IMG/VR virus record: IMGVR_UViG_3300046522_000512
Location: 20,791 to 84,790 of that record
Strand: one strand, 5' to 3'
Source of the DNA: a virus
Length of the DNA: 64,000 nucleotides
Numbering within the stretch: position 1 is the stretch's first letter; each line of letters opens with the position of its first letter. Under the pieces are notes generated by a model. That model saw only the letters and a program-made list of their open reading frames with translations, did no database searches and was not told where the DNA came from. The position numbers and the translations under genes are program-made. Below are positions 351 to 32,208 of the stretch, piece after piece.

Positions 351-2333
351 TCAGATGGCAAGTGCGGCGAGTGCCGCCTTGACCTCCGTGGGGTCCAGGT
401 GCACGGAGTCGTTCTCGTCGGCCGGGGTGTTCCCCGGGGGAACAGCCGTGTCGGCGTAGGGGATTGTGCTGTCGGCCGGTCCGTCGTCGGCGGTGGCGCT
501 GTCGGCGAGTTCGTCATAGGCGGCGGGATCGCCGTCCCCGTCGTCGGGCCAGCCGTCGGTGATCGAGTACTTGTCCAGCCACGAGTCGGAGTCGTCCGAG
601 CTGCCGTCGTCCATGGGGGCGCCCTTCTTCGACAGGGCGTCGAGGAGTTTCCCGATGGTGGGCCGCAGGTGTTCCAGGTGCGCGGGTCCGGCGTCGGACA
701 CCTCGATCAGCGCCGTGGCGTCCTGAAGAGCCCGGTCGGTCGGCCTGATGAACCGCTCGCGGGTGGACTCCGTGGCGTCGGCCAGGCGCTCCGGCCCGGC
801 AACAGGGGTGGCCACGGTGGTGAGTTCCACCTGAACGGGCACGCCCAGGTCCACGTCCCGGCCCGACACGGTGTACGGGATGGCGTACGTGTCCGTGTCG
901 CCGTCGTCGTAGCGGCTGACGATGATCCGGTCGGGGTAGGTCGCCTCGATCGCCACCCAGCAGCATTCCGGCTGCTCGGGGCCCCCGCCGCCGCGGTCGT
1001 CGTTGTCCGGGGTGAGCAGTGCGCGCGCAGCTTTGCTGAGCTGGTCGCGGAGCTGCTCGTAGGAGTAGGGCATGGGTGTGCTCATGAGTCGCTCCGGAAG
1101 CTGAATGGGTTCGGCGGACTTGGCCTCGATGACGATCTGCGCGGCCGACTTCTGCTCCAGCACCGCGGCGTGGGTGGCGGCCGACTTCGCCTCCATCACG
1201 ATCTGCGCCGCCGACTTCGCCTCCATCGAGGCGGCGGGTGCGGCCGCGGTCTCGTCGGAGGCCGCGCCGAGCGGCACCTCGAACTCGTCGCCGCCGCGCA
1301 CCACGTGGAGCGTCGTGAAGGTGACCGGGGTGGCCGGCACCGGGTCGGTGCTGTCCAGGTCGTATCCGAGGGTGACGTGCGGGGTGAACCCGTGGTCGTC
1401 GCGGACCGCCTCCGAGTACGGGGACCCGGACAGGGCGAGTACAACCTGCTGCCGCAGCTCTGCGAGGCCCGGCACGTCGACCGGCACCCACGTGGGTATG
1501 CCGTCCCCGGTGTCGGGAAAGACGCCGAGGCCGCCGAGGGTGCCCGTCAGCGGGCCCGAGTCGTTCACGGCCGGGGTGACGATGTCGCGCAGGTCGTCAG
1601 GGTGCCCGCCGAGGTCGCCGACGTCGCCGAGGTAGGCGAGCGTGATGTGCAGGCTCTCCGGGGCGGTGCCGTCGGGCTGGGCGATGGATGCGGCGACGTC
1701 GGCCGGGATCTTCAGCGCGACCATCACGCCGCGCCCCACCTGCGACTCGGCCGCCTTCAGCTCGACCGCCGACCATGTGGCCTTGCGCTCCAGTTCGTCG
1801 CGCGCCCGGGTCGCTGCCTTCACTTCGATGCTCCGCGTCATCGGGTGCGCGCCGTGAAGTACGGGGCTCACCTCGTACAGGTCCAGGTCGTGGATGATGC
1901 GGACGCCGTCGTGACGCTTGGACGCGCCGCCCGGGGGGACCTTGAAGCCGATGGAGAACTGCGCTTCGCCGTTCTCATGCCACTGGCGGACCTGTTCGTA
2001 GGCATCGCGGCCGCGGGTGGTGCGCAGGTTGTACTGGCAGGTCGCGACAAGCGCTCCGGCCTCCTTGGGCCACACGGAGCCGCCCGGGATCGAGGCGAAG
2101 CGCGGATCTCCCGGCATCCACTCCTCGATCGACAGGACACTGCCGACCGGCTCTTTCCAGTCGTGGCTCCACACCGGCTTTACACGGCGGGACGCGAGGG
2201 TGCGGGTGAACGCTCCGGGGATGATGAGGTCTTCGACATCGTCGACCACGCCTGTGACTGCGAAGATGGCGCGGACGATGCCCTTTCCGCCGCGGGCGCG
2301 GCGCAGCATTGCGGTGGGCGGCGGGCTCGGCAC
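351..2333 (-). CDS. HK97-type prohead protease fused to a 2H phosphoesterase (2'-5' RNA ligase/Acb1-like fold) and an acidic scaffold-like C-terminus
   Basis: Protease motifs GAFTRTL, WSHDW, FSIGF, LYEVSPVLHGA; two HxT motifs (LHITL, PHVTL); AGGAGGA RBS. Confidence 0.88.
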   Translation of the reverse strand: MPSPPPTAMLRRARGGKGIVRAIFAVTGVVDDVEDLIIPGAFTRTLASRRVKPVWSHDWKEPVGSVLSIEEWMPGDPRFASIPGGSVWPKEAGALVATCQYNLRTTRGRDAYEQVRQWHENGEAQFSIGFKVPPGGASKRHDGVRIIHDLDLYEVSPVLHGAHPMTRSIEVKAATRARDELERKATWSAVELKAAESQVGRGVMVALKIPADVAASIAQPDGTAPESLHITLAYLGDVGDLGGHPDDLRDIVTPAVNDSGPLTGTLGGLGVFPDTGDGIPTWVPVDVPGLAELRQQVVLALSGSPYSEAVRDDHGFTPHVTLGYDLDSTDPVPATPVTFTTLHVVRGGDEFEVPLGAASDETAAAPAASMEAKSAAQIVMEAKSAATHAAVLEQKSAAQIVIEAKSAEPIQLPERLMSTPMPYSYEQLRDQLSKAARALLTPDNDDRGGGGPEQPECCWVAIEATYPDRIIVSRYDDGDTDTYAIPYTVSGRDVDLGVPVQVELTTVATPVAGPERLADATESTRERFIRPTDRALQDATALIEVSDAGPAHLEHLRPTIGKLLDALSKKGAPMDDGSSDDSDSWLDKYSITDGWPDDGDGDPAAYDELADSATADDGPADSTIPYADTAVPPGNTPADENDSVHLDPTEVKAALAALAI

Positions 2334-2421
2334 GGCGGGTTCCTCCTAGGCGGGGCTCTCGATGCGCGCACCGTGCCCCGCCCGGGGGGTTAGCGTCCCG
2401 CCGTGGCCTTCCGGCCGGGCC

Positions 2422-2994
2422 TCACTTCCACGGCTTGCCCTTCTTCTTCTTGGGGTCCGCGGGGTCCACTTCGCCGCCCGAGCCGTCGGCCGGGTCGTTG
2501 GGGACGGCTTCGTCCGCGGTGCCGTAGTCCAGCGCGAGGCCGCCGTCGTCCGCGGCCGCGGGATCGGCGGCGGGATCGCCGGCCGCCGGGTCCTGCGCTG
2601 CGGGGTCCTGCATCGCGGGGTCCTGCGCTGCGGGGTCCGGCTGGTCGCCGGTGCCGCCGGACTGCGCCATACCGGCGTCGTCCACGTCGATGGCCCACGT
2701 GTCCGGGTCCGAGTAGCGCCACACCTGCCCGGACTCGTCACGGACCCAGCACGTCAGCGTGCCGTCCTCCGCCTTGTCCAGCCACGCCTGCTCGCCGTTG
2801 TTGCCGGAGAAAGAGGCGTACGCCTGCGCCGGATCGGTCTCGTCGCCCTCGTCGTAGGCGTCGCCCGCCCACGGCCGGGCGTCATCCTGATGCGGTGGCT
2901 GAAGCTCCGGCGGCTGTTCGGCAGCCGGGTCCATGCCCTGCGCCGCCGGGTCCTGGGACGGGGGCAGCGCCTTCACCTCGAATCTGTAGTCCAC
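2422..2994 (-). CDS. Acidic hypothetical protein in the head operon with AQDPA repeats
   Basis: Typical codon bias, leaderless GTG after a class I promoter, basic C-terminal tail. Confidence 0.7.
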   Translation of the reverse strand: MDYRFEVKALPPSQDPAAQGMDPAAEQPPELQPPHQDDARPWAGDAYDEGDETDPAQAYASFSGNNGEQAWLDKAEDGTLTCWVRDESGQVWRYSDPDTWAIDVDDAGMAQSGGTGDQPDPAAQDPAMQDPAAQDPAAGDPAADPAAADDGGLALDYGTADEAVPNDPADGSGGEVDPADPKKKKGKPWK

Positions 2995-3186
2995 GCCGCG
3001 AAGGGTCGGGAGTTCAAGAGCTTGCGTCTCGGCCTCCGCCAGGAGCGTGGCCCGGACGACTGCGCCCGCCTGTGGCCGGTCGGTTCGAATTGCAACAAAT
3101 TGGTTAAAGCGCTAGACATGTGGCGAGAGCCCGGTGTCCGATGGGCATCGTTTTCAGCAGGGCCCCACCTCAAGGGTGTGAGCGCT

Positions 3187-3229
3187 TCAGGCGAACCCGA
3201 CCGCCTAGTTCCCGGTCGGGTTCGCCTGA
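3187..3229. terminator. Perfect 17-bp inverted repeat, probable terminator
   Basis: TCAGGCGAACCCGACCG-9 nt-CGGTCGGGTTCGCCTGA. Confidence 0.6.
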
Positions 3230-3303
3230 CGGCTTTTCCGACGGAACGGTCGCGTACGTCCATCCACGCCCACACCATGTACCTGCCGGTACGACCAGTC
3301 TGC

Positions 3304-3432
3304 TTACCTCCAGGCCGCGATCGCGGCAATGGTTGCCACGATCAGCCCGAGGGCCGCCAGCGCGACCATCCAGCGGTCAGCGGGCCGCCAACGGCGTTTC
3401 CCCTTCTTGGGGTGCTTCTTGGGGTGGTGCAT
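3304..3432 (-). CDS. 42-aa small membrane peptide (basic N-terminus + one TM helix)
   Basis: GGGAGGA RBS; MHHPKKHPKKGKRRWRPADRWMVALAALGLIVATIAAIAAWR. Confidence 0.55.
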   Translation of the reverse strand: MHHPKKHPKKGKRRWRPADRWMVALAALGLIVATIAAIAAWR

Positions 3433-3523
3433 GGGTTCTTCCTCCCATCGCGGTCTAGTGGACGGATAGGCATCTGCACATCTGCCTCAGCACCACCTCC
3501 AATGAGCAGGTGTCACTACCCAT

Positions 3524-3584
3524 ACCACACGCACTGTGGTCTACGCCACAGGCTATGTGGTCTAAACCAATAAATCTCTGTGGG
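3524..3584. promoter_or_regulatory. Tandem palindromic operator-like sites CCACA-N5-TGTGG, 21-bp period
   Basis: ACCACAcgcacTGTGGT, GCCACAggctaTGTGGT and a degenerate third copy, between divergent genes. Confidence 0.5.
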
Positions 3585-25400: not shown

Positions 25401-28400
25401 GCAGGAACTCGGCCGCATGGGCATGGTTGGCGCCGCCGCGGCCGCGCAGGGCGCGCTGCATTCCGTCGAGGGCGCCTTGGAACTGCTGGATGGCTTCCGA
25501 CGGCGTGATGTCACCGCGCTTCAGCGCGTCCACGGCGTCACCGGCAGGCGCCGCCAGGTCGTGCGCGGCGGGCGCTCCACGCAGCTCGGTCAGACTGTTG
25601 ATGACCGGGCCGAGCTGCTGCTCCGCCACATCGAGCGCTTCCACGATGTGGTTGCCCGCGGCGGTGGTAGCCGCCATGTCGGCCAGGCTCGGGCCCTGGT
25701 CGGCGTTGGGGGCCGGCTGCGGGGCCGCCTCGGGGGCCGGGGCGGGGGCGTGGTCGGTGTCGTGCTCGCGCACCAGGTCCGCGAGGGCCGCCTCCTCGGT
25801 GAGGAACGGCTTCTTGGAGCTGTAGCGGGTGCCGTGACCGAGCCGGTTCCACGTCCAGCGACCCGCAGAGCCCTGGAGCGTGGCGTCGTCCTGGTTGCCG
25901 CCATCGACGGCGGCGGGGCGGTGGCCCGACTCATTGTGCGCGCCGAGCTGGACGCGGGAGAGCTGCTGTGCGTACGCCTGTCCGTCGCGGCGCTGGGCCT
26001 CGGCGAGGATCGCCGTCTTCTCAGCCTGGGCGCGGGCCCTCTTCGCCTGGTCGCCGGAGGACAGGGTGTCAGACCAATCCTGGTCGGCCTTCGCAAAGGC
26101 GGCGTCGAGGTCCTCGCGCGACACCTGCGACCAATCCCGCTGCTCGGGCTTCGCCTGCGGGGCGTCGGGGTTCGGGGTGTTGGTGCGGTCGCCCGCGTAC
26201 GGGGTGCCGTCGGGGCGGGTGATGTCCTTCAGCGCGTGGGAACGCGTGCCCCGCTCGGCGCGCACGAGCACAGAGCCGGAGTCGCGGTTTACGGCCATGA
26301 CCGAGCCGACACCGTCAGGCGAGTTGACCTCGTCGCCGTTGTTGGGGAAGTCGCCTTCCGGCGTGGCCTGCGGGGCGCTCGGCGCGGCCGCGGCCGGGGT
26401 AGCCGCAGGGGCCGGGGCGGGCTTGTTCTGCTGCTCCTGCCGCTTGCGGTACTCGTTCGCGGCGTGGGACTCCGGGGCGCCGTGGGCGATGTCCCACTGG
26501 CCCCGCTGGTCGTCCATCTGGTTGCCGAAGGCCCGGCTCCACACCCCGACCCGGTGCCGCTCGCGGGGGCCCAGCTTCGGATCCCACCAGTCGACTTCCT
26601 GGTCCGGGTTGGACGACTCGCGCACCCCGCGGCCGACCTGCATGGCGAACTGGCTGGCATCCTCCCAGGACTTGAAGCCCTGCCCTGCGCCGCCGGACCA
26701 GCCGAGGGCTCTGCCGTCGTAGGCGCGGTGCACATCGAACCGGTGGGGGCCGCGCTGGACGATCGCGAAGCCGAAGTGGTTGGCCATGGTGACGTTCCAC
26801 TTGGGGTTGCCCGCCATGGCGCGCACCCCATCGCTGTACACGCGATCCAGGCCCGGGGCGCCGCCGTTCTTCCAGTACTCGCGCAGCTCACCGGTGTTGC
26901 CGGGCTTACGGAAGCCGACCTTGTCGTCGCCGTTGTTGCCGCTCGGTCCGACGTGGCCGACGGCGATGTTCTGCCGGGGGATGCCAGAGGTGTCGGCGAT
27001 GGACTGCGCGGCCTGCACGAGCGGGTTCGGCCGCTCGGTCGGGGCCGCGGGAGCCGCGGGAACGGCCGGGGCCGGGGCCGGCGGGAGGACGGCGGGGGTC
27101 GCGGGAGCGGGCGTGTTCCTCGCGGCCGCGCCCTCACGCTTCTTCGCGGCCTTGTCCGCGAATACCTTCTTCGCCTCCACGCTGGCCTGGCGCACCATCT
27201 CCTGGCCCTCGGGAGACTCCAGGCGCTGGTGATAGCCGGGGCTGTCCCAGTCGAACGGCTTGTCGCCGAGCTGGGCGGCCTCCAGGCGGTTCGCGAAGTC
27301 GACGGCTTCGCCCTTGCGCTCCGACATGGCCAGGCGGACGCCGCTGCCGGAGACGATGACCGCGTATCCGGTCTTGCGCTGGCCGTTCTTCTCCACGGTC
27401 ATCTTGGCGATGACGAACCGGCCGCCGCGGGAGAGCTGCGGCCTGTCGAGCTTGGCGAACAGTGCGGCGGTTTCCCGCTGGTGCCGCTCCTGCTGGGCCT
27501 TGTCCTGCGTGTACGGCTCCAGATTGCCCTTCCGCCAGTAGGCCTGAAGCTCGTCGAGGTTCTTGAAGAGTTTGCCGCCCAGGGCGCTGGCCGGTCTGGC
27601 TGCCTGCGGCCGCATGGGCATGCTCGTGTTGCCTTCACCCGGGGGCAGGCCTCCGCGAGAGCCGGGGCCCTTCTGGGGGCCGTCGGAGCGCCAGGCCCGG
27701 GGAACGAGCGGCTGACTCTTCGGGCGGTTCTTCCTCGGCGCGGGGATCGGCTCGTTGCCGTGACTGGTGAAGCGCTCGTGAGCGAGGCGCAGCGCGTCAC
27801 GCAGGTTGGCGGCGTACCGGGCAACCTCGTCCTGGCCGTCGTTGTGGGCGATCTCCGACAGCTGGTTGGCCTCGTCCGCGAGCCAAGACAGGCGTTCCAC
27901 GTCGTCCGGGTTGAGCTGGTCGTTCTTGTCGTCCCGGACGTCGAATCCGGTACCGGCGTCGGCCAGGCTGTCGTACAGCTCGTCGGCTTTGGCGTTGTGC
28001 CAGTTCGCCGGCCAGACGCCTTCCAGGTCCCCGAAGTACTCCTCACTCAAGTCGCGCACGGCGCGCCGGGCGTGGCTGGTGTCCCAGAACTGGTGGAAGT
28101 GGTCGTCTACCGGGGGGCCGGCGGCGCGCAGCGCATCACCGTTGCCCATGACGTGCCGCTCGTGGGGGGTGTCGTCCGCGTTCCTGTCGATGGGCAGCAG
28201 GTCGGGGAAGCTCGGCATGGCGACGTTGCCGCGCCGCCGGGGCGGCAGAGGGTCGCCGTCGTTGTCGTGGATGTTCGTCATGACGCGGCCCTGCGGGACG
28301 AGCGGCTGATCGTCGTCGTGGTTCGGGTCATCGGGGCCGGCGCCGAGATCCTGGCCCTCGATGTCCTGGCCGATCGGCTTGCCCTGGTCGTCGCGCTCGT

Positions 28401-28839
28401 GGACGGTGTCCGGGGTCTGGCCGTTGTCACCGCGGTCGTTGGCGGGGTGGTCGGCGCCCTCGGCTGTGTCGTCCTTCGCCGGGTCGTGCGGGCCGTGGCC
28501 AAGCCCGCGGTTCTCATCGCCGTAGCGCCGCTCGTCCTCGTCGCGGACCTTGGACTTGCTCTTGGTCGGCGCGGAGCCGTCCGGGCGGCTGACCATGGTC
28601 AAGCGGGCGGCGTTGATGCGGGAACGCTGGTGGGTGGCCAGGTTCTCCACGAGGACGTCGCGGCCACCGAGCGCGCGCAGGACGCGGGCCATGCCGCCGC
28701 CCCACATGCGGGCGATACCGCCCGTTTCCACGAACCTGCCCTTGGAGTCACGGGGGTGCAGATCCGGGTTCCACGTGCGGCGCAGCCTCTTGGTTTCGAG
28801 GCTGGCGAGGATGCGGTCTACGGCGGTGGTGATCGGCAT
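4408..28839 (-). CDS. Giant (~8143 aa) polyvalent protein: DarB-like N6-adenine methyltransferase + SNF2 helicase, SF1/UvrD-like helicase, repeated beta-barrel domains, degenerate zincin-like C-terminus
   Basis: MTase LEPGSGVG (~24600) and GNVPFG (~24430); SNF2 HEVGAGKT (~22385), VDEAH (~21880), QRNGRVIRQGN (~20735); SF1 ALAGTGKS (~16975), DEAQD (~16390), VGDSNQAIYGFRGA, HKSKGLE, YVAVTRA (~15305); leaderless ATG at 28839 set by the class I promoter. Confidence 0.92.
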   Translation of the reverse strand: MPITTAVDRILASLETKRLRRTWNPDLHPRDSKGRFVETGGIARMWGGGMARVLRALGGRDVLVENLATHQRSRINAARLTMVSRPDGSAPTKSKSKVRDEDERRYGDENRGLGHGPHDPAKDDTAEGADHPANDRGDNGQTPDTVHERDDQGKPIGQDIEGQDLGAGPDDPNHDDDQPLVPQGRVMTNIHDNDGDPLPPRRRGNVAMPSFPDLLPIDRNADDTPHERHVMGNGDALRAAGPPVDDHFHQFWDTSHARRAVRDLSEEYFGDLEGVWPANWHNAKADELYDSLADAGTGFDVRDDKNDQLNPDDVERLSWLADEANQLSEIAHNDGQDEVARYAANLRDALRLAHERFTSHGNEPIPAPRKNRPKSQPLVPRAWRSDGPQKGPGSRGGLPPGEGNTSMPMRPQAARPASALGGKLFKNLDELQAYWRKGNLEPYTQDKAQQERHQRETAALFAKLDRPQLSRGGRFVIAKMTVEKNGQRKTGYAVIVSGSGVRLAMSERKGEAVDFANRLEAAQLGDKPFDWDSPGYHQRLESPEGQEMVRQASVEAKKVFADKAAKKREGAAARNTPAPATPAVLPPAPAPAVPAAPAAPTERPNPLVQAAQSIADTSGIPRQNIAVGHVGPSGNNGDDKVGFRKPGNTGELREYWKNGGAPGLDRVYSDGVRAMAGNPKWNVTMANHFGFAIVQRGPHRFDVHRAYDGRALGWSGGAGQGFKSWEDASQFAMQVGRGVRESSNPDQEVDWWDPKLGPRERHRVGVWSRAFGNQMDDQRGQWDIAHGAPESHAANEYRKRQEQQNKPAPAPAATPAAAAPSAPQATPEGDFPNNGDEVNSPDGVGSVMAVNRDSGSVLVRAERGTRSHALKDITRPDGTPYAGDRTNTPNPDAPQAKPEQRDWSQVSREDLDAAFAKADQDWSDTLSSGDQAKRARAQAEKTAILAEAQRRDGQAYAQQLSRVQLGAHNESGHRPAAVDGGNQDDATLQGSAGRWTWNRLGHGTRYSSKKPFLTEEAALADLVREHDTDHAPAPAPEAAPQPAPNADQGPSLADMAATTAAGNHIVEALDVAEQQLGPVINSLTELRGAPAAHDLAAPAGDAVDALKRGDITPSEAIQQFQGALDGMQRALRGRGGANHAHAAEFLRLARENVSVARQALSEQHKRSNDSVVRGSRSDVLEDVPAAGSGSVPDGQGVRGVRPGAVGRDRAADRGTDGGVGSSAAGGHGRGGAGSRAEVGPDAGPGTGAARHGVRDAEGSGNGDEGHAAGGAASAPVAFGTPEQQATAPAYEPPADGKTLVPSSPVNRAKANIAAIEILRRLQDENRPATGAEQQELARYSGWGAVPQIFKPQPDAQFQPLAKRLRELLSDAEWADASANTLNAHYTDPQIVQQMWAALTDLGFDAGSVLEPGSGVGNFIGYAPDGTHMTGVEVDSITAGIAKALYPHAEVRHESFGDTRAPNGTFDAAVGNVPFGRYKVPDLVHNKGGHSIHNHFILKSLDLTRGGGLVAVVTSSLTMDGHGGRSEAARMEMAEKGELVGAIRLPSGAHQRTAGTSVMTDLLIFRRRDKSKSFTSGRNRKGEIKRPSERTQNDPPMWVHSLPTYALPGQTPPKPGTPPDQVEPPVFYNSYFHDNPQQILGKLAVGHGMHRDNELRVDGDGKTIANLERALKRTVEEAKAAGLAYKPDTEGRSKVTLLPPGSSRVDGHVQAEPDGSFTQVRDGMVHPFPVFKTQANEARQLLAIRDTFQSLLAEENRKDADESLIERLREALNKQYDAYHSKFGAINRFTWSKRTAIDPDTGEKVEKTYRKKAARGGLFTNDPTMSNITPLDEFDDTTRKTTKAPIFSKRLGTYREIAKYADDPQDALAIVLETDGRLTADGLARVMRTDADTAIARLLTARSVDSDTGVEYPMAFQAPDGELVTAADYLSGNVRTKLDEARRAAADDSRYDLNVEHLERVVPPDLSTGEIAAPMGASWIGREPVEQFLRETLGDQRITVSWQGGALWAVDAPDGAKKSIAERTAHTWSAKGYTALEIAEAILTNRKIVVTKKEGHGENAKSVYDKDATEDAQAKATLLREAFTDWLWADPDRAEKHKRFYNDNFNSMAPRSYDGQRRTIPGLVEWFDPHPHQHAAVARMVNEPSVLLAHEVGAGKTAEMAMGVMELRRLGLVKKAAMVVPGHMLEQFRHEFAEIFPESVANNRILTASSEDLAGKGRREFIARAAAGDYDAIILTQTAFESIQMRPEIQEDYIGRRVERLREKILRQKDADGEGNDTRLVKRMEASLKSLEEKLDKKLSGLKDAAGLHFEDMGVDYLVVDEAHMYKNLDTPSSVAAIDGSNRASDLEMKLEWLRKRSDTGRVVTFATATPVANSIAEVHTMMRYLRPDLLEELGMLDFDDFASTFAQMVSAVERSPDGSYKEKTRLAAFQNVPELLRLWRSFADVKTAEDLDLPVPGIVGGKAVTITMPMSPAQEEYEVLLRARAARLEGGNVDPKEDNHLKLLGDGRMAALDPRLLDPSLGGGNKLPTVADNVVRIYGETKDAVFPTSKTDATPHDTPGGLQIVFLDLGTPKDPGRSKKRKKKAGSGTDADEMDASLTDDGSESLSRDDEETYTDFSTYDELKSLLIARGIPAEQIRFIHEAKDDAAKARLFNDARSGKISVLLGSTAKMGTGTNVQLRAVALHHVDAPWRPADVDQRNGRVIRQGNANDEVAIFQYATERSTDAKFWEAIARKAKFIRALMRGSLSERVVEDIGPVNFDADEVSALTAGDPHLIAQAQLKPLVNRLRGRFNAYRRSQEGFKEAIRDSAQAEEWTKQYVAQLQQAVEKRKPTRGDDFNATIGTTDFEGGDARDDARNALNTALRAVYADGMRRPYDENAAGIPIGRVGGLEVTARFVRTRSIGNQWYNTVRVDLPQVPGAWQDYEDHELIDHDGKPRTLPLSRIENSIANIDERIKRAEHRRADKKRAAEQAAGRIGKPFELATVFEESTRQLDLLNEIMRLKAQPTVTEEDTAKRNKQIAALDAELRAMSNDQEDVLAQVAARDVNLVPKTPAPPAISQDDKGRVKWIWPTTEARDAARAKKLAAKREAFLARTSSSAQAAPAQPDALGMNNADLKEETDTLAERIAKGEASDKDVVRHAGLEREQQRREKNRAARAAAEQSSTPSGQNSGETVTLDPQKVRADLAEISPAADRTGAEPEGQDAPKETPASQPEAEPSLTTAQARALESALNSGLGPDGQQIEAHPNVIRRLLRLGYADERSKPRVGGGSIKYYVMTPEGERRARALRDEREQARTARLAALDAADEAPQERNSQTPQASGTPGTGPQPPSPRPAPQAPAAPRPAPKPADTVRPFANEREWRAGITGVEGAQGQVTSAAETTWGRDMPAPARSLRDNVFQAIAAQESGDTEDTAASLAGAREDAQRLRNRLTDTDRQGMEAPLDNFMRVTDDYLARHAVTVEKRRREDAQRDRIEREAQEQFRRSLTGTPAPAPETPAKGSDAPSTGRAWQDGDFQPGDTVAFSNRNAMNMQQSGEFVRSANQDTAVLRGRNGAEREVPYIDIMGRTRDGVFEENPPAAGTPTTPLPQPTPSADDGKQFESGDKVHYWYDESGPAQRKLGTVVETTDDGVVVDGPAGDRETIPFNRVTKAPERQRSADAPQPAPASSDLPMSALFAKNKATSRHALDSLKAGYQEQFGDEPRDRVGQLSNELFTFLDQQWGEAAGGVFGPASETALHLADALHDQEMTPEERSGRFGAQVADVQRELRHRRDVIARQQGAPDSAGKAPRPSAPSDARPVPATPPADMDGDQIGEEIDTLDEQIAPLQDATDSVDLAYRLRLEQRRFELEEEERRRWSPTPEYGEDGKVIPRKRGDVIRDRLAGYGLNDAETTGLVHRVEDLPAAKAGGYSDEEWARIDTAAAANEAYPPTEEQGIIIEGAARRGLNMAVMALAGTGKSSTLKMLSHRMPGKKIVYLAFNRSVANEAREAQARGEYAKNLTASTANGYAAKVADKRLNNRLPNHKAGGFKKLSAQQIADRMRWYDTVKAGDRDLAPGGAATVAELMIKTWAKSSDAEMGPQHITGAKTAQEARDLFDAVKPLADRMWANLSDPTKGDAGQDLPMDFDYIVKMWAVGGFKIDADTLYWDEAQDVNPVMEGVVRAAIDQGVQVVAVGDSNQAIYGFRGASDALSKLPVDARATLTQSFRFGPAVANVGNRFLRLLGTRMRLKGFDRKDSRLGNIKPGDETMVIARTNAGVALAAVEALAAGRTIAVSGGVKDLQEFVTAARALANGERTSHAELARFNGKSYEDILDEVNSDPELQQLKSLFALLDKHPDEIDKLMESGAQAADTENVGGRVWVTLDWNDPKVDQLKRWLGDAKTNGVGKLLYDRESRRYYYEPGKRTESFTKNGRTINYQVDNKLSLEDAKAKIDAHLAKLYPQEDTGGGRLVDEKKPHDLLVTTAHKSKGLESEKVRIADDFRGPEYDDNGHIKWDTVPEDEDLRVAYVAVTRATDVLDAGSLGWVFEAVNDGDPTQPPTGEYRRDWVLDDFKPGDRINFQEEDGTPQVGEVARLDGPGLIARYDVDGQQREQYIGTAQVQRRNGQDRPQLPVASEDELNQAVAEGRYPEASGGAPAKLDAGKVRDELAALKNDQPSPETTEPRKEANTGSPAAPDPATGIITGDQVPPGPDATAADKEAYRRRFDIRYQVGYYVDYRNDDGETVTARVVNTRGNPILRDDAGHEFRADPNWYADHFIAVRKDDGSALPRPAWADTLPDGFRAVPPNEIQPGHVIREGSSSDKLWGSRFVMAKTVDEDGRTTLYTAQLATQGGGGLGLDPRQLVVLDETEESRQLAEEALHRRDVKESAKLQGLTLPTELPAGPNRQAQEGSTAREWHNGDTAVTPNGEGRVILAEDGKVVVLDGGGAPRTYEPRQLSMPGEARTAEHNAPTAQEAARGEKRQQDLESAQTPEGLGLFYGARLANLDLEEGHGQVLDEDGNVVGWIRRRGTVWHGQDARGGQTGGGTAQSASDPLYGPREAAQAVDSNRRDNGMRVALKDTAWRHLRPEEGRDTVQYSELSDAQREEFFKLAKEWAKSSDHELSEAAKHWGQGGLNYRQMNRLAEEATATADSVDASTPEGRRRQAVLQRLADKIRAQASRAWHSWQTMPPPGEPDVPRDVDAPDWVPYGHRETSKTDAPVKLDAAQVRTELADLNGSDSSPAADGDPGKASPEPEADGETIDADQARINDYVRVEVSDTLDRTRVHEGYLLANPRKGKGHRPRHGDFDAWILYIGNGPNQSPGRGNQVDIPADQKIQRLPAPEAPALGPVDIDSVKPGQYIRATVPDADGNEVTREGYVVSAAARRDGPRRDDPVMSWQVHIADTPHAVHAWDDVIEVPAGHEVERMSPPGPVPELEIPDVPGLDLSEYTRPDQKEVDEYRKWAGVWANPAPDGPRNALLDRVKNMPGPASRPLSPKAAPRWIGDAGDAFPLDQFDENTRHLLAQYDGDQRDFLAGHAASMREATQRLAGEFRAASREIMIPRIATRSGMKDAAEKLGALWAGDSERSRQVVLDQIAAAVADADRHGLTEQQVKDFLVGVAGGDDPEQRANGLTGAFPEVGRSLSSASDDVKAYYAGFHAWRGQNDDQSFSGYHHYNNRRSALGGEYLPVADPRTGDGQFIVGEAELPDGMRWTRLQNLKPGDLYRPARGYYAKDNRFDGLDAAHVVVNLHADGKEGRPRTTSLSTGSHTEHPGDWVVHLTAPEPALRKKANAKLRDKWVKKENEDDARKWEAAQAISRRPDGEAADVASLQEGERLRVRGSNEFIGGIYVAEGDLLEPPERAQMWRGGSQVDGWRLLLSTHGHAGDHIYVADGESDEWAERLSRDTNAPETGASGTNAPETGESQTNEPGTDEPKPDESGDGEPKPDESENNDDRDRRRRRRNQLGNGAPNGGGGGLPGGLGMGLPNFPDSSTPSTGSGRGRGDGSGRTPAGTGQADNANPAAGLPDEFAALRQRYDGDMVPASEIQVGDWVHIVGADQMYNEPKHLVGRVLHTRQFNGGVRIEVESRDPLKGGDAVQRESAALYDGELAERLPEGNPGREDTSDLKRRMETWEERASASRVPVPEGWQAVDGSRIQPRIGDRFRIVARQDGKRTQHMNVVVERSNDWQGDGYWKVKNQARRFHPSDIVAIPEGADVQYRTDVPEPAESTPQRPERTPSVPDISDEPRAEIVNPNEPQRGDRVRVETQNTAGSKVTREGFLLAPARSVTATRDGERLKAWRLHLSDNPDAKPNVRNGVTILADDKVARLPDTDAPAAGGADVPREGGATPVGGQDGASSSNAPSAGGSDAPGAGDGQGAAPTGDAPAPTSQYGINAAHGEGRRAGTVDGRRIPTHDELRQYQTGENGIISEEGERALFGSPERIQELAAQGFTPSPKLVSDHGREEVWRNGRLIGSVRAPHTTGFYMTPPEERWEGEMPLGNHYHNGTFSTRDAAIAHLVLRDMEQGEPDLSIVHPDIAWDFRGSNLSLGFPPEEEGLRGLESLNDNPADMERYRKIRALADALGRGETISGNVADDLDHLHDELRWLDATHYKYQPADLKHKHILGPGWLADEIRDYLDVLRPEDPRAMHHEISKARASKQFLDDLVDEGGKDRAESVPVTDLRAGDIVDLDGRITNRYPGATTRRTGYVVGEPRPASITINKKRQKAVRIHVASSVVGAHQLAGDTFVIPVGDNAQRLMSADDVNLPVEEYRYGRQVGEAPEVAPQRATSSGDNTPAPAEERPAAAPNTPAPAPAPVPAEERPAPAKETPAPAPAKETPAPAPAKETPAPAPAEDRPAPAAKTPAPAKERPAPAEETPKPSADKAEPERPAVPEPVHGRPAEWVKVSDIRQGDVVRIDGITKGGTARTLAGYVMDGPTEVPTVRARRVQDMVRVLIAETPDGSTKRESVWVKPDATAARATREIGDEATTVQTGADSDVLTGRVADRVATDGGGNGLFPGSVVTDDDGREGVVVGANSAGVRVQFGDDRTDDAHEPSTLNVIDGGAARPSGWTTDGHRVNVGNWVSDRDGNMLGTVEELDGDTATVATTEGMKPMPVTDLRVIGDTDNNGQDGTPAAQRRKEPITSREPAPTVEPVTGPTVDPELAPEERDAVADRGTAPGDAPEAQQGAARIARDLPVTPEQAAAIAEGLRQNADPSTAEGRAAKRAADRLDQAAGQTGTSNDDGGMTTEARYLSTGDVIVAPVNGEPSRLLVVEGIRSEDGKTVNLLLANADGRFISDSVGARAPFRPLPYDSALEGGGVADQADRRIVKATELKPGDHLVFGTGANGSDWFTRKVQSVSVGDKQVTVELEGLAGRPSTTRTFQILGGSLAESVSVMDRERPAAAWFAANQRRLTGEADAPNPDADSAPAGRPEPGTVGSVGVGDTIALPDETNPDEMASYRVTDVQDAPGGLRVLTVEDGNGQRSERTMAAGDPLYQLPEPQVPADDDAEARDPNAGLDTAAFTADYGDLVARAVVDAAVEGTQTPGSIHQLREQIAAKVTAGALRSAMRRVQRDAQAVVDGSGITGDERERLLAELRRMAMRSRIDAVQAAVQTLDDLEPLDGESPEDTAARAADLLRLIPESLRNRSESDEPDLDTGVGDGDGSADGEATPEPDAGAGSPVDDEVQGHVDGAVGEALRDADTGLLTPERRAAIVARLAQRMADSRDGAAQRIAAQLPEGERPGMLARITAALVQIARRVVELVAAFLKGLAAAVAYPFKAINRFRKGLVRRVRSWPETRRLRRIAAAARSLPRHGDGMSLADQVAHWARLLPAPGHFGQVSRRRRWYRLATRSSLAAGQLPGVQDGTGWTMDRAADRGPGRHALRHLAAVRAAGTDVDADVVARLMAAAPELGDDPHGTVRHARRYQDRAEARVRNLRAVAAGQGAPDLGPEIAAAQVEAQHARQEADRLHQAYTAALPGAVRDTLAQVREMGPGGRNRLTLSHSSDPAAARALADAAGYVPREWLADRTARFVTAVDGDAGSYDADSGTATVADLGDGGRGTAVNALVAHLQRSYPDLLAAQEVFGFTRTHTGRPGARRSTLDALLERLFGGRAEDVTDDQIVARGLATMFSGDWYRDDDLRAFLLGLLATR
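8200..8500 (-). repeat. Tandem 27-bp-type repeats encoding PAPAPAKET/EERPAPA linker
   Basis: Repeated ggggccggggtctccttggccggagcc units. Confidence 0.85.
25011..25337 (-). CDS. Nested out-of-frame gene within the giant ORF (TnpV-like small helical protein)
   Basis: AGAGGAG RBS 8 nt before GTG (ATG-ACA-GTG); globular composition; the host frame here is G/R/A-rich low complexity. Confidence 0.65.
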   Translation of the reverse strand: MTVSYVDLVRTFWKTYRPLEVDRFPTDKAFEEFARERSDEIVQQIEELTEEWAPPLQEGTDAVARARELKSVRMRARERVLHDMVYGMPKDPGTETKDMPRVELPQLP

Positions 28840-28846
28840 GCGGCGG

Positions 28847-28877
28847 ACCATGCACACCGGGGATGGTTAACGTCGCG
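28847..28877 (-). promoter_or_regulatory. Class I (late-type) promoter of the giant gene
   Basis: CGCGACGTTAA-N14-CATGGT-N7-ATG; one of 8 copies. Confidence 0.75.
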
Positions 28878-28910
28878 GGCTCGAATTTTGCGGCCCGCGA
28901 CGCGGCCGGA

Positions 28911-29126: not shown

Positions 29127-29749
29127 GACGTCGTCTCCATTGCTGAGGAGGGCAGGGGGCGGGGGCCGGTGCCGTCGTACGGGGCGGCGAGACCGGCATT
29201 GATCAGGGCGCGATTGAGCTCGTGGCCGTAGGGGGTCGCGATGGTGGCGAGGTAGCGGCCGTACTTCTCGCGGCGCTCGGTGTCGACGGTGAACGCGGGC
29301 CCGTGCGCGGCGACCCACTCGCGGACCCAGTCGGCGGCGTGCTTCCCGGCGTCGGTGTTCTTCTCGGCGGTGTTGATGCCGAGGAGCCGGACGCGTTCGA
29401 AGGCGCGGAGCTCGAACCCGAGGTCGATGGCGAGGTCGAGGGTGTCTCCGTCGATGACGCGGGTGATGCTCGCGCTGTAGGTGTGCGGGGCCGGGGCGTC
29501 GGTCAGGGTCGCGAGGTAGCGGCCCTTGGTGTCGCGGGTGGTCTGGACGGTGAGCGGCCCGCCGCTGGCCTTCAGGTGTGCGCGGGCCCACGCGGCGGCC
29601 TTCTTCGGGTCGTCGGTGGTCGTGTCCGCGGTCGCCACGGCGGTCAGGCGGACGCGTTGGGCCAGGTGCAGGTCGAACCCGAGGTCGATGTCGAGGTCGA
29701 GGGCGCCCGCGCGGCCGATGCTGAGGAGGGTGGTGCGGTAGGTGTGCAT
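29123..29749 (-). CDS. Thermonuclease (SNase) family protein with a degenerate N-terminal duplicate domain
   Basis: RVIDGDT, RVRLLGINTAE, EKYGRYLA, LNRALINAGLA; start overlaps the portal stop. Confidence 0.88.
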   Translation of the reverse strand: MHTYRTTLLSIGRAGALDLDIDLGFDLHLAQRVRLTAVATADTTTDDPKKAAAWARAHLKASGGPLTVQTTRDTKGRYLATLTDAPAPHTYSASITRVIDGDTLDLAIDLGFELRAFERVRLLGINTAEKNTDAGKHAADWVREWVAAHGPAFTVDTERREKYGRYLATIATPYGHELNRALINAGLAAPYDGTGPRPLPSSAMETTS

Positions 29750-32208
29750 CACAGGTCGCCGCTTTCGGTGGTGCGGTAGCGCAAGCGGCACCGGCAGTTG
29801 ATCGTCAGGTGGAGGGGGGCGAGCTGATCGCCGGGGAAGCGCATGGCGAAGCCGCCGACGTCGTACGGCTTGCCGACGGGCAGGGTGGTGCCGTCTACGG
29901 CCTGGTGGGCGGCGCGTACGCGGTCGTCGCGGCGGGTGACCCAGGTGCGTTCGATGCCGGGGCTGATCGCCGCGGCGGTGGCTTCCGCGGTGCCGTTGAC
30001 GGTGGCGACGGCCGCCATCTCCGCCATCCCGGACGCGGTCTGTGCGGCCTGGTCGCCGAACGCGGTGCGTACGAGCGCGACCAGGTCGTCTATGTCGTCG
30101 GTGACGTCCTGCGCCTGAGTCAGCAGGGTTGCCGCGCTGTCCAGGAAGCCGCGGGCGATGTCCTCGGCGGCCGCCACGGCGTCGAGGACCGCGGCGGTGA
30201 TGCGCTGCGAGGCCTCCGCCGGTACCCGCGGGGCGCCGAATGCGGCCATGGTGCGATCCGCTGTGGCGGCTGCGACCCGGGCGAGGATCCGGGCGAGGGT
30301 TCCGGTGACCTCGTCGAGCCACCGGTCGGCGCCGATGACCCGGGTCACGTCGAGTGCCGTGTCCCCGCCGCGCCGGTCCTCGGGGCCTGTCGGCTTCCAG
30401 AACTTGGTGCCCTTGCGGGCCTTGGGGGAGCGCAGCCGGGCGGTGACGACGCCTTCCTGCCGGGCGAACAGTGACTCCAGTGCGAGCGCTATCGCCTCTT
30501 GCGCCCGGTCGTAGTCGTCGTCTGTGACCTCGTACGAGGGCCGGTCGACGACCTTGAAGGGGAGGGCCTTCGTCTGGATGCCGCGGGCTTCGTCGACGGC
30601 GGCCGCGGCCGGGCCGGGCTCGGCTTGTACGTCCTGCCCCATGCGGGCTTCTGCGACTGCTGCGGCGGCCTCCCCGGGGCCGGCGGGCAGGTCTTGACCC
30701 ATGCGGGCGTCGGCGACGGCCGCAGCCGCCGCACCACTGCCGTCCAGCGCGGGAGTGCCGGCGGGCTGTCCGCCGTCGGCGCGGGCCTGCGCCACCGCGT
30801 CGGCTGCCGCCCCGTTGCCGCCGGGCTGCGCCGACGGGTCGATGGGTGCGTTCGGGCCGCCGGGCGGCATGCCGGGGACGGCTTGGGAGCCGCCGCCCTG
30901 GATGCCGAGCGCCGCGGCGTCGGAGGGGAGCAGCGGGACGGGGGCCTTCTGCGGGGAGATCCACAGGGCTCGGGAGTGGGGGTTGTTGAACGGGGTGAGT
31001 CCGGCGCGGCGCCGGTACTCGTCGATGGAGATGAGTCCCTTGTCGAACTCCTCGCGGGCCTCCTGGCGGCGCTTGCGGCGGGGGAGTTCGAGGGCCTGGA
31101 CGGTGGAGGTGTTGTAGCGAATCCCCAGGTCGTCTCCGCCGAGGTCTCCGGCGAACGCGTCGGAGATGAGCGCCAGGTGGCCGAGCTCGGTGTGGACCCA
31201 GAACCCGTACTCTTCCTGCTCCGCGTTGTCGAAGGTGCGGCCCGACGCGTTGCCGGTGACGGACTCCGGGACGCCGAACGCCCCAAGGATCTCGATCTTG
31301 GAGTTCATCGCGGCGTGCTCGTAGGCCATCTCGCGCGGCCGGGCCGCCAAGTCGACGTAGTTCATGCCGCCGGGGCCCGCGCCGACCACGGACACGTGCC
31401 CGGCGAACTCCGAGCCGGGCAGGAACCGGGCCTCAAGGCGGTCCATGTCCTTGTCGGACAGGCTGCTCGTGTCGACGGCGACGATGCCGCCGGGCCTCGC
31501 GTCGTTCTTTATGAACGCCACGTTGTACAGCCGGGACAGGTGGTCGAGTTCGATGCTGATGCCCGCGGCTTCGAGCGGTGTCTGCCCGGAGAACGGGTCG
31601 GTGGGATGCGGCTCGCGGATCCAGCGGACCCGCTCCGGTTCGAGTTCGCGGACGTGCCCGAACAGGGTCGTGAACTGGAAGTGCTTGATGTACTCGCCCT
31701 TGTCGTCCGGGATGGGGATGACCCGGTCGGGCGGAAGGAGGTCGAGGCGGGTGATGGTGCCGCGGTTGGACCGGGTCACCTCAACGAACGCACCCCGCTT
31801 GGACAGCAGGATCTGGGCGGAGAGCCGCTTTCGGAACTGCGACCCGCTCTCCAGCGGGTTGGCCTTGGGCCCGTTCAGGAGCCGCAGGAGCGGATGGTCG
31901 TCGATGACCTCCTCGAACTCGCCGTCTTCGGTGAGGCCGCGCCCGATCTCCAAGGGGAGGCGGGCGGCGTGCTTGCCCATGGTGTCGATCGCCTTGTAGA
32001 CCCAGACGACGCGCTCATACCCCTCGGTGACGACGCGCCCGAGATCCCAGCCGTCGGCGCGGCCCTCGGTCCCCCACACGTTGCTCGTACCGGCGTACTG
32101 GGTGGAGGTGTAGCCGCCCGTCCACGCGATCGTTTTCGACTCGGCGGGCTGTAGGGCCTGGTTGGCAATCAGGTTTCGCAGAGCTGGTAGCCAGCGGCGT
32201 CGGGCCAT
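29749..32208 (-). CDS. Phage portal protein fused to a MuF/minor head domain
   Basis: HK97-like portal motifs (PNPLESG-like, NDARPGG, AFGVP); C-terminal WVTRRDDRVRAAH...PGD...INCRC. Confidence 0.9.
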   Translation of the reverse strand: MARRRWLPALRNLIANQALQPAESKTIAWTGGYTSTQYAGTSNVWGTEGRADGWDLGRVVTEGYERVVWVYKAIDTMGKHAARLPLEIGRGLTEDGEFEEVIDDHPLLRLLNGPKANPLESGSQFRKRLSAQILLSKRGAFVEVTRSNRGTITRLDLLPPDRVIPIPDDKGEYIKHFQFTTLFGHVRELEPERVRWIREPHPTDPFSGQTPLEAAGISIELDHLSRLYNVAFIKNDARPGGIVAVDTSSLSDKDMDRLEARFLPGSEFAGHVSVVGAGPGGMNYVDLAARPREMAYEHAAMNSKIEILGAFGVPESVTGNASGRTFDNAEQEEYGFWVHTELGHLALISDAFAGDLGGDDLGIRYNTSTVQALELPRRKRRQEAREEFDKGLISIDEYRRRAGLTPFNNPHSRALWISPQKAPVPLLPSDAAALGIQGGGSQAVPGMPPGGPNAPIDPSAQPGGNGAAADAVAQARADGGQPAGTPALDGSGAAAAAVADARMGQDLPAGPGEAAAAVAEARMGQDVQAEPGPAAAAVDEARGIQTKALPFKVVDRPSYEVTDDDYDRAQEAIALALESLFARQEGVVTARLRSPKARKGTKFWKPTGPEDRRGGDTALDVTRVIGADRWLDEVTGTLARILARVAAATADRTMAAFGAPRVPAEASQRITAAVLDAVAAAEDIARGFLDSAATLLTQAQDVTDDIDDLVALVRTAFGDQAAQTASGMAEMAAVATVNGTAEATAAAISPGIERTWVTRRDDRVRAAHQAVDGTTLPVGKPYDVGGFAMRFPGDQLAPLHLTINCRCRLRYRTTESGDL

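What the first reader, a model, noticed from the sequence alone, without database searches (positions are those of the whole stretch)
1117..32150. Candidate maturation-cleavage consensus hydrophobic-(E/Q)-x-K across head proteins
Besides 7 copies in the protease, the motif occurs near the N-terminus of the 190-aa protein (FEVKA), the giant protein (LETKR) and the portal (AESKT). It also occurs at the portal/MuF junction (IQTKA, ~30562-30579). The placement at N-termini and domain joints suggests one shared processing code, including release of MuF from the portal. The motif is short, so chance hits are possible.
Basis: inference. Interest (0 to 1): 0.7.

Follow-up and report, generated by a model that had tools for sequence, protein, structure and literature searches.

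The report
Lysine cut-site code in phage head
A short signal (Glu, any residue, Lys, then a small residue) is strongly conserved at flexible ends and domain joints of this Streptomyces phage's head proteins. It is most likely where the phage's own HK97-type head protease cuts, but no cut has been measured.

Summary
The window is part of an 84.8-kb Streptomyces phage contig related to phage Gilgamesh. In the protease fusion, E-x-K-[A/S] occurs 8 times against about 0.2 expected. The single hits in portal, giant protein and p190 are not significant by count; conservation is what decides them. Across 80-119 homologues, E and K are near-invariant islands in otherwise hypervariable segments at four places: the protease linkers, the portal N-terminus, the portal/MuF joint and the giant protein's N-terminus. 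AlphaFold models put the sites in low-confidence linkers. Three corrections are needed. A hydrophobic P4 is a local preference, not a rule. The Glu of the p190 site is not conserved, although K-x-L-P is. Four protease copies are a tandem repeat, so they are not independent. A further head protein (p180, outside the window) carries three such sites. The best reading is a cleavage code of the S78 prohead protease, working like T4's L/I-x-E code; confidence 0.65. No cleavage was measured. Other notes from this scan describe similar lysine-ending motifs in other phages.

The parts
351..2333 (-). Gene for a 660-aa fusion: S78 prohead protease domain (about residues 15-175), 2H phosphoesterase domain (about 200-357), C-terminal domain (about 421-575), acidic tail and C-terminal helix
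   Evidence: Pfam PF04586 at 50.2 bits and PF13563 at 44.6 bits. PHROG head maturation protease and RNA ligase families. AF2 domain limits. Foldseek matches to LigT, CPDase and Acb1.
1752..1829 (-). Three sites (IEVK|A, LERK|A, VELK|A) in the linker between the protease and 2H domains
   Evidence: Coordinates. In 119 homologues: site 1 has E118 and K119; site 2 has E119 and K119; site 3 has K112 but E only 57. AF2 pLDDT is below 50 for residues 176-196.
1116..1226 (-). Four sites (MEAK|S, MEAK|S, LEQK|S, IEAK|S) in a tandem repeat between the 2H domain and the C-terminal domain
   Evidence: Coordinates. E/K conservation is 118/119, 98/103, 94/106 and 118/118 of 119. AF2 gives low-confidence segments at 363-376, 383-395 and 407-420.
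375..389 (-). TEVK|A at the start of the C-terminal helix of the protease fusion
   Evidence: E116 and K111 of 119. AF2 helix at 648-659. P4 is not hydrophobic here (D54, A21, E15).
2422..2994 (-). p190, a 190-aa protein of unknown function with FEVK|A at residues 5-9 (2968-2982)
   Evidence: No Pfam or PHROG family. [FY]-x-[VI]-K-x-L-P is conserved in relatives, but Glu at P3 is present only in this phage and its closest relative, among about 14 readable N-termini.
4408..28857 (-). Giant polyvalent protein (methyltransferase-like region, SNF2 and UvrD helicases). The true start is probably Met7 at 28839. LETK|R lies at 28786-28800.
   Evidence: Pfam helicase families. In 80 homologues, 68 begin at the Met7 position; L20 is hydrophobic in 79, E21 in 75 and K23 in 78, with variable flanks. 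The other testable ExK sites in the protein are not conserved.
29749..32208 (-). Portal-MuF fusion gene (819 aa): portal core about 68-435, linker 440-552, MuF domain 556-819
   Evidence: Pfam PF04860 at 135.9 bits. PF04233 scores 22 bits, below its cut-off, but PHROG head-morphogenesis families match 628-816. The Gilgamesh orthologue is annotated as a portal and MuF-like fusion. AF2 domain limits.
32131..32145 (-). AESK|T near the portal N-terminus (residues 22-26)
   Evidence: E 116/119 and K 115/119, with flanks at 2-3 bits of entropy. These are two of only 19 conserved columns in variable surroundings, out of 819. AF2 pLDDT is below 50 for residues 15-67.
30565..30579 (-). IQTK|A at the portal/MuF joint (residues 544-548)
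   Evidence: K 119/119, P3 E79/Q40, P4 L/I/V/M 112/119, P2' L116, P3' P87. The site sits in the low-confidence segment 544-552, directly before the confidently folded MuF domain.
1..184 (-). First 61 codons of the major capsid protein gene; the rest lies left of the window. The two capsid sites, TEVK|S (residues 96-100, L002:6676-6690) and MEGK|S (residues 129-133, L002:6577-6591), are 101-214 bases beyond the window edge.
   Evidence: Pfam PF05065 at 102.7 bits; sequence. Both sites are conserved in all 9 relatives. In 135 family representatives, K99 is K in 97 and R in 8; P1' is S or T in 94% of the 105 that have K or R; K132 is K in 106.

Best explanation
E-x-K followed by a small residue (S, A or T) is most likely the preferred cutting site of this phage's own HK97-type (Peptidase S78) prohead protease. 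The protease would read P3 and P1 on an extended strand and cut after the lysine.

Inferred sequence of events inside the assembled prohead:
1. The protease removes the capsid protein's delta domain, at K132|S133 and/or K99|S100.
2. It cuts its own polyprotein in the two flexible linkers, freeing the 2H phosphoesterase (about 18-19 kDa) and the C-terminal domain.
3. It trims about 25 residues from the portal N-terminus.
4. It separates a 29-kDa MuF domain from a 55-kDa portal.
5. It removes a 17-residue leader from the 880-kDa polyvalent protein.
6. It removes the N-terminal low-complexity part of p180.

Shown here: the motifs, their enrichment, their conservation, and their placement in predicted flexible segments. 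Inferred: that they are cut, and by this protease.
For: 1. Enrichment. There are 8 E-x-K-[AS] against 0.21 expected in the protease fusion. p180 has 3 against 0.23 and the capsid protein 2 against 0.36.

2. Conservation as islands. Portal N-terminus E116/K115 of 119, and joint K119 of 119, inside hypervariable segments. These are 4 of only 19 such island columns out of 819. Giant N-terminus E75/K78 of 80, with variable flanks. Protease sites have E and K in 94-119 of 119 at seven of eight sites.

3. Specificity. Only the N-terminal ExK of the giant protein is conserved; those at 513, 561 and 7326 are not.

4. A prediction fulfilled. ExK sits at the capsid delta/mature boundary in all 9 relatives. 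The K132 site maps within 1-5 residues of the known mature N-termini of D3 (residue 114) and HK97 (S104). The K99 site reads K|S-L-G as in HK97.

5. Wider lineage. In 135 capsid representatives, the boundary has P1 K or R in 105; among those 105, P1' is S or T in 94% and P3 is E or Q in 51%, against a 12% background. ExK occurs 498 times against 181 expected in the delta parts, but 43 against 57 in the mature parts. KxE, DxK and ExR are not enriched in the delta parts; QxK is modestly enriched (1.57x).

6. More distant myoviruses with a related protease carry the same signal. Cantare has MEAK|SLGE in its capsid protein, IEEK|A at residue 14 of a 1040-aa head-module protein, and ExK in the second half of its long portal protein. 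Hanem has 7 ExK in the first 152 capsid residues.

7. Accessibility. AF2 places the sites in low-pLDDT linkers between confident domains.

8. The protease looks competent. It has an S78 Pfam hit. His57 aligns with HK97 His65. His57 and Ser127 (S-I-G) are invariant in 83 homologues.

9. Precedent for lysine at P1. HK97 residues 103/104 are K/S, and the solved mature chains have 282 residues.
Against: - No mature N-terminus, fragment size or in vitro cut is available for this phage or any relative. The literature searches found no proteomics and no published E-x-K consensus for S78 proteases.
- The p190 site keeps K-x-L-P but not Glu.
- P4 is not consistently hydrophobic.
- The repeat sites in the protease keep more than a cut site needs: A at P2' in 119/119 and V at P6'. 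Those repeats therefore have another constraint as well.
- In delta domains the middle residue is often I, F, L or V, which also fits a coiled-coil g-a-b heptad pattern. Much of the lineage-wide excess comes from 3-4 homologous positions, not independent events.
- Which of the two capsid sites is used cannot be told.
- The catalytic Ser is assigned by motif similarity only; HMMER did not align it with HK97 Ser114.
- Depletion of ExK in the giant protein family (observed/expected 0.84) lies within the spread of the control patterns.
Confidence: 0.65

Rival explanations
1. Only the capsid protein and the protease itself are cut at these lysines. On this reading the conserved motifs in the portal N-terminus, the portal/MuF joint, the giant protein's leader, p190 and p180 are docking or capsid-targeting signals that are bound but not cut. 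MuF would then stay tethered to the portal.
For: P1 DarB has an N-terminal 30-residue capsid-targeting signal with no evidence of removal. The joint and p190 share K-x-L-P downstream, which a pure cut site need not conserve. The protease C-terminal motif lies in a conserved helix that may be a capsid-binding tail. Portal-MuF fusions are common in actinophages and no processing has been reported.
Against: The same P3-x-P1 signature as the capsid boundary is kept in four unrelated sequence contexts. All lie in flexible segments at ends or domain borders, where cutting is the simplest shared function. In T4 and the phiKZ-like phages, targeting leaders are removed at the protease motif (and established knowledge).
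Confidence: 0.2
2. The motif is structural or compositional: a coiled-coil g-a-b pattern in delta domains and a duplicated linker repeat in the protease. It would be unrelated to proteolysis, and the hits elsewhere would be coincidental conservation.
For: P2 is enriched for I, F, L and V in delta domains. Four protease copies arose by tandem duplication. Single hits in portal, p190 and giant are within chance by count.
Against: KxE, the mirror pattern, is depleted in the same delta domains (0.59x) while ExK is 2.75x. Serine and alanine are enriched after the lysine. The portal, joint and giant sites lie in segments predicted to be disordered, not in coiled coils. They are near-invariant amid hypervariable flanks.
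Confidence: 0.08
3. The sites are cut, but by another lysine-specific protease, either a host trypsin-like enzyme or an unrecognised peptidase of the phage, and not by the S78 domain.
For: The catalytic Ser of the S78 domain is assigned by motif only. Streptomyces make trypsin-like proteases (general knowledge).
Against: No peptidase family other than S78 was found in the head module or the giant protein. A general trypsin-like enzyme would not explain the conserved Glu at P3. HK97's S78 protease cuts after lysine. The motif follows the protease lineage into Gordonia and Brevibacterium phages.
Confidence: 0.05

Closest known systems
HK97 gp4 prohead protease (Peptidase S78) with the gp5 delta domain
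   Same: Same Pfam family and the same gene order (portal, protease, capsid). The capsid protein has an N-terminal delta domain and there is no separate scaffold gene. The cut is after Lys and before Ser (HK97 K103|S104). His57 aligns with HK97 His65.
   Different: HK97 has Phe, not Glu, at P3 (F-N-K|S). Its protease is a 225-aa single-function protein. Here the protease is fused to a 2H enzyme and a further domain. No multi-substrate motif covering portal, MuF and cargo has been described for HK97, to my knowledge.
T4 gp21 (L/I-x-E), phiKZ gp175 and SPN3US gp245 (small-x-E) cleavage codes with capsid-targeting leaders
   Same: One P3-x-P1 motif is reused on capsid, scaffold, protease and packaged or ejected proteins, mostly removing N-terminal propeptides. 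SPN3US has 14 sites in 9 proteins, 13 of them N-terminal.
   Different: These are a different branch of the assemblin-fold proteases (S77-like, not S78). P1 is Glu, not Lys, so the charge pattern is reversed. Those codes are proven by mass spectrometry; this one is not.
P1 DarB and the polyvalent proteins of Iyer et al. 2017
   Same: A giant methyltransferase-helicase protein encoded among the head genes, with a short N-terminal segment that could direct it into the capsid.
   Different: The P1 capsid protein is cut after Glu120. Removal of the DarB signal is not known. The protein here is 3.6 times longer.
Lambda portal gpB to B* processing (from my own knowledge, not checked here)
   Same: About 20 residues are removed from the portal N-terminus during head maturation, similar to the 25 residues predicted here.
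   Different: The lambda head protease belongs to a different family, and the lambda portal is not fused to MuF.

Membership tests
Peptidase S78 (HK97 gp4-type prohead protease) | Sequence match to the family model above its curated cut-off | tested here: met
   PF04586 at 50.2 bits against a cut-off of 21. phrog_80 head maturation protease, E 3.8e-23.
Peptidase S78 (HK97 gp4-type prohead protease) | Catalytic His and Ser (HK97 His65 and Ser114) | tested here: inconclusive
   His57 aligns with His65. Ser127 in S-I-G-F resembles HK97 S-V-G-F and is invariant in 83 homologues, but HMMER and BLAST did not align that stretch.
Peptidase S78 (HK97 gp4-type prohead protease) | Encoded between the portal and an HK97-fold capsid protein that carries a delta domain | tested here: met
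   The gene order is portal-MuF, giant, p190, protease, capsid. The capsid family match begins at residue 155, leaving an N-terminal extension of about 100-130 residues.
Peptidase S78 (HK97 gp4-type prohead protease) | Cuts the capsid protein at the delta/mature boundary | not testable with these tools
   Only conservation of K|S at the homologous place could be shown.
Multi-substrate prohead cleavage code (T4 or phiKZ type; works like, not a member) | One short motif conserved at processing positions in several head proteins | tested here: met
   Capsid, protease, portal (two sites), giant and p180 are conserved. p190 is only partly conserved.
Multi-substrate prohead cleavage code (T4 or phiKZ type; works like, not a member) | Mature N-termini begin after the motif | not testable with these tools
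   No proteomic data were found for this phage or for Gilgamesh.
Portal-MuF fusion | Portal domain followed by a MuF (head morphogenesis) domain in one polypeptide | tested here: met
   PF04860 at 135.9 bits. PF04233 scores 22 bits, below its cut-off, in this protein but is on record for many homologues. PHROG head-morphogenesis families match 628-816. tblastn hits annotated MuF genes.
Polyvalent protein (DarB-like virion cargo) | Several enzymatic domains in one giant protein encoded among the virion genes | tested here: met
   SNF2/ResIII/Helicase_C and UvrD families. Sources name homologues as N12-class adenine methylase/helicase. The gene lies between portal and protease.

The most novel reading that the evidence does not exclude
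On this reading the head of this phage family is a programmable delivery capsule. One lysine-ending code, read by the S78 protease, frees a swappable enzyme cassette from the protease polyprotein; the cassette is a 2H phosphoesterase here and a Nudix domain in Gilgamesh. The same code detaches MuF from the portal and strips the leader from an 880-kDa polyvalent protein. The set of proteins injected with the DNA could then be read from sequence in more than a hundred Streptomyces phage or phage-plasmid genomes.
Probability: 0.35. Interest if true: 0.65.

Novelty: new variant of a known kind. Interest (0 to 1): 0.5.

Why it matters
If the code is real, it gives exact, testable mature boundaries for at least six head proteins of a large and barely studied family of Streptomyces phages. 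Many of these lie on 125-137-kb contigs, some labelled plasmid. It predicts that MuF is released from its portal fusion. It also predicts that a 2H phosphoesterase, a fold shared with the anti-CBASS enzyme Acb1, is set free inside the capsid ready for injection. It would extend the idea of one motif marking the whole head proteome from T4 and jumbo phages to the HK97-type S78 proteases, whose specificity is poorly described. It would also give a rule for annotating packaged cargo in actinophages.

Tried and rejected
- Near-identical DNA search in the phage collection found nothing. Protein search found Gilgamesh as the nearest named relative.
- Literature searches for a published lysine or E-x-K consensus of S78 proteases, for actinophage virion N-termini, for portal-MuF processing, for Gilgamesh and for T5 pb11 gave no relevant data.
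- Sequence search of the protease domain against solved structures gave no usable hit. Foldseek on the whole model returned only the 2H domain, so the protease active site could not be checked structurally.
- Depletion of ExK inside the giant cargo protein was examined as a sign of site avoidance. Observed/expected is 0.84, but control patterns range from 0.7 to 1.4, so this was set aside as weak.
- I tried to see whether free-standing MuF proteins begin at the predicted cut. Known MuF genes match only the C-terminal core, so this could not be tested.
- A covariation test was considered: do the other sites change where the capsid site is not Lys? The non-Lys representatives show no single alternative motif and come without genome context, so it was not pursued.
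- 'Hydrophobic at P4' as a general rule, and the Glu of the p190 site, were rejected on the conservation data.
Full report
**Setting**

The window is bases 20791-84790 of an 84.8-kb, 70% G+C contig. Its head genes lie on the minus strand in this order:
- portal-MuF fusion, 29749-32208
- an 8149-codon ORF, 4408-28857
- a 190-aa protein, 2422-2994
- a 660-aa protease fusion, 351-2333
- the major capsid protein, whose first 61 codons reach into the window at 1-184 and whose remainder lies to the left

Pfam identifies Phage_portal, a weak Phage_Mu_F match, Peptidase_S78 plus a 2H phosphoesterase, Phage_capsid, and SNF2 and UvrD helicases in the giant protein. PHROGs agrees. No near-identical phage DNA is on record. 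The nearest named relative is Streptomyces phage Gilgamesh, which has the same gene order at 41-65% amino-acid identity. Homologues are numerous in Streptomyces and Kitasatospora assemblies, typically on 125-137-kb contigs, some labelled plasmid.

**Observation**

I re-derived each coordinate by translation. The protease fusion has an eighth copy (TEVKA) eight residues from its C-terminus.

Shuffling gives the following:
- Protease: 8 E-x-K-[AS] against 0.21 expected, with none of 2000 shuffles reaching 8.
- Portal: 2 against 0.86 expected, unremarkable.
- p190: 1 against 0.32 expected, unremarkable.

Four of the protease copies are one tandem repeat and so are not independent. Conservation has to decide those.

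**Conservation in close relatives**

I fetched eight related loci around the protease and ten around the portal from viral contigs, plus Gilgamesh, and aligned the orthologues.
- The capsid protein carries x-E-x-K|[S/T]-L-G-D at residues 96-100 and [M/I/L]-E-G-K|S at 129-133 in all nine sequences.
- The first two protease sites are kept in all nine, the third in seven, the repeat sites in most, and the C-terminal site in eight.
- The portal N-terminal E-x-K, the joint [I/L/V]-[Q/E]-x-K-[A/T]-L-[P/S] and the giant protein's [L/I]-E-x-K are kept in all nine.
- In p190, only K-x-L-P and the preceding aromatic residue are kept. The Glu varies (E, D, S, A).
- Eight further genomic loci, six of which show the N-terminus, confirm this. 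Glu is present only in this phage and its closest relative, among about 14 readable N-termini.

**Conservation in large sets**

Portal-MuF, 119 homologues at 49-100% identity:
- E23 is kept in 116 and K25 in 115. The surrounding columns have 2-3 bits of entropy.
- P4 at this site is T, V, A, P, L or D, so it is not hydrophobic.
- At the joint, K547 is invariant, P3 is E in 79 and Q in 40, and P4 is L/I/V/M in 112.
- The next residues are A, L (116) and P (87).

A scan of all 819 columns for conserved columns in variable surroundings returns only 19. These include E23, K25, K547 and L549.

Protease fusion, 119 homologues:
- E and K at the eight sites are kept in 118/119, 119/119, 57/112, 118/119, 98/103, 94/106, 118/118 and 116/111.
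- About 40% of all lysines in these proteins sit in E-x-K.

Giant protein, 80 homologues:
- 68 begin at the Met7 position, so the true start is probably at 28839.
- The leader is variable except for a hydrophobic residue (79), Glu (75) and Lys (78), just before an invariant R-R-x-W-N-x-x-L-H-P-R-D-S-K-G-R-F block.
- The other ExK sites of the giant protein that could be tested are not conserved.

**The capsid boundary**

There are two candidates.
- K99|S100 reads K|S-L-G, like HK97's K103|S104. I confirmed those HK97 residues and the 282-residue mature chains.
- By position, HK97's S104 and the mature N-terminus of phage D3 (residue 114) both map to residues 133-138 of this protein, next to K132|S133.

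I cannot tell which site is used, or whether both are.

In 135 representatives of the wider capsid family, each standing for a 50%-identity cluster:
- The first site has K or R in 105.
- Among those 105, S or T follows in 94%.
- Among those 105, P3 is E or Q in 51%, against a 12% background.

In the delta parts of these proteins, E-x-K occurs 498 times against 181 expected. The controls are KxE 0.59x, DxK 0.91x, ExR 1.13x and QxK 1.57x. In the mature parts E-x-K is 43 against 57. The residue after Lys is enriched for S and A, and the next for L.

Two caveats apply. Much of the excess comes from three or four homologous positions. The middle residue is often I, F, L or V, which would also fit a coiled-coil g-a-b pattern. 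Against that, the depleted mirror pattern argues that the heptad reading is not the whole explanation.

**Placement**

An AlphaFold model of the protease fusion, built with 83 aligned sequences, gives three confident domains (15-175, 200-357, 421-575). It also gives low-confidence linkers at 176-196, 363-420 and 578-643, followed by a C-terminal helix.
- Sites 2 and 3 and all four repeat sites lie in the linkers.
- Site 1 ends the last strand of the protease domain.
- The last site begins the terminal helix.

The portal-MuF model, built with 90 sequences, has residues 15-67 at low confidence, the portal core at 68-435, a linker at 440-552 with four short helices, and a confident MuF domain from 556. 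The joint motif (544-548) sits in the low-confidence segment 544-552, right before MuF.

A scan of all 57 predicted proteins of the contig found another enriched protein. It is 180 aa long, lies two genes downstream of the capsid gene and is outside the window (L002:2848-3390, minus strand). It has three [V/I]-E-x-K-A in an acidic N-terminal region, 3 against 0.23 expected. Two of these sites are conserved in 8 of 10 relatives, the last directly before the conserved body of the protein.

Only six of the 57 proteins have [E/Q]-x-K in their first 45 residues. Four of them are head-module proteins.

More distant myoviruses whose protease domain is 44-45% identical show the same signal:
- Brevibacterium phage Cantare has M-E-A-K|S-L-G-E in its capsid protein and I-E-E-K|A at residue 14 of a 1040-aa head-module protein.
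- Cantare also has ExK sites at 482 and 524 of its 793-aa portal protein.
- Gordonia phage Hanem has seven ExK in the first 152 capsid residues.

**Mechanism**

The most economical reading is that the S78 protease binds substrates as an extended strand. It would read Glu at P3 and Lys at P1, prefer a small P1' residue, and use one code on all head proteins.

This is the P3-x-P1 layout of the proven codes of related assemblin-fold proteases: T4 L/I-x-E, and phiKZ and SPN3US small-x-E (and established knowledge). Here the charges are reversed.

The protease looks competent. His57 aligns with the catalytic His65 of HK97. His57 and Ser127 are invariant in 83 homologues. The Ser assignment rests on motif similarity only.

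The predicted products are listed:
- 55.5-kDa portal and 29.0-kDa MuF
- 33.2- or 36.9-kDa capsid protein
- an 18-19-kDa 2H enzyme and a 26.5-kDa C-terminal fragment

That the cuts occur is inference. I found no proteomic data for this group and no published E-x-K consensus for S78 proteases.

**Rivals**

1. Only the capsid and protease are cut, and the other motifs are docking or targeting signals (0.2). This is supported by the extra conserved residues after some sites and by P1 DarB's uncleaved-as-far-as-known leader.
2. The motif is a structural or compositional pattern (0.08). It is weakened by the mirror-pattern control, the Ser/Ala preference and the disordered context.
3. Another protease does the cutting (0.05). 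No other peptidase family was found in the module.

**Comparison and novelty**

Multi-substrate prohead cleavage codes are well known in T4-like and jumbo phages. Cutting after Lys is known for HK97. Portal-MuF fusions, 2H domains in head modules and polyvalent proteins have all been described.

What is new here is the particular consensus for an S78 protease and the predicted substrate set. It is unverified. I rate it a new variant of a known kind.

Other AI notes of this scan describe similar lysine-ending motifs in other phages, one of them hydrophobic-Glu-x-Lys in another soil actinophage. These are leads, not evidence.

**Verdict**

- Observation confirmed.
- Interpretation partly supported: it passed every computational test open to it, except for the p190 Glu and the P4 rule, but no cleavage has been shown.
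- Confidence in the cleavage-code reading is 0.65. Interest is 0.5.

Noticed in passing
window 30583-30811 (minus strand; portal-MuF residues about 466-542): The portal-MuF linker holds four copies of a unit (P)G-x-A-A-A-x-V-A-x-A-R. Its A, V, A and R positions are nearly invariant in 90-119 homologues. AF2 models each copy as a short helix, and the last ends right at the joint motif. The function is unknown.
   Followed up: partly
window 1260-1735 (minus strand; protease fusion residues about 200-357) and L003:19986-21911: The domain between the two ExK-bearing linkers is a 2H phosphoesterase here, with both H-x-T motifs and Foldseek matches to LigT, CPDase and Acb1. In Gilgamesh gp52 it is replaced by a Nudix-box domain. 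This looks like a cassette swap inside the protease polyprotein. Some relatives (L007, L009, L011) carry an extra insert of about 60 residues between the repeat sites.
   Followed up: partly
L002:2848-3390 (minus strand; outside the window): A 180-aa head-module protein of unknown function has three [V/I]-E-x-K-A sites in an acidic N-terminal region (3 against 0.23 expected). Two of them are conserved in 8 of 10 relatives.
   Followed up: yes
window 28839-28857: The giant ORF's first possible start (GTG at 28857) is probably not used. 68 of 80 homologues begin at the Met that corresponds to 28839, so the predicted leader removed at LETK is 17 residues long.
   Followed up: yes
window 375-395 and three places in the giant protein (residues about 3130, 4770 and 5290): The conserved C-terminal helix of the protease fusion (L-D-P-x-E-V-K-A-x-L-A-x-L) resembles three L-D-x-x-[K/Q]-V-R-x-x-L-A segments in the giant protein, which have Arg in place of Lys. 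Other first-stage notes call this a capsid-targeting tag. I did not test it.
   Followed up: no
L002:4058-5320 (minus strand; outside the window): A 420-aa protein lies immediately downstream of the capsid gene. PHROGs calls it an exonuclease and Gilgamesh annotates the orthologue as a metallophosphoesterase. It is an unusual tenant of a head module. It has no ExK at all.
   Followed up: no
whole contig and homologues: Relatives of this element sit on 125-137-kb contigs in many Streptomyces and Kitasatospora assemblies, several labelled plasmid. The family may replicate as phage-plasmids. The 84.8-kb contig here may be incomplete.
   Followed up: no
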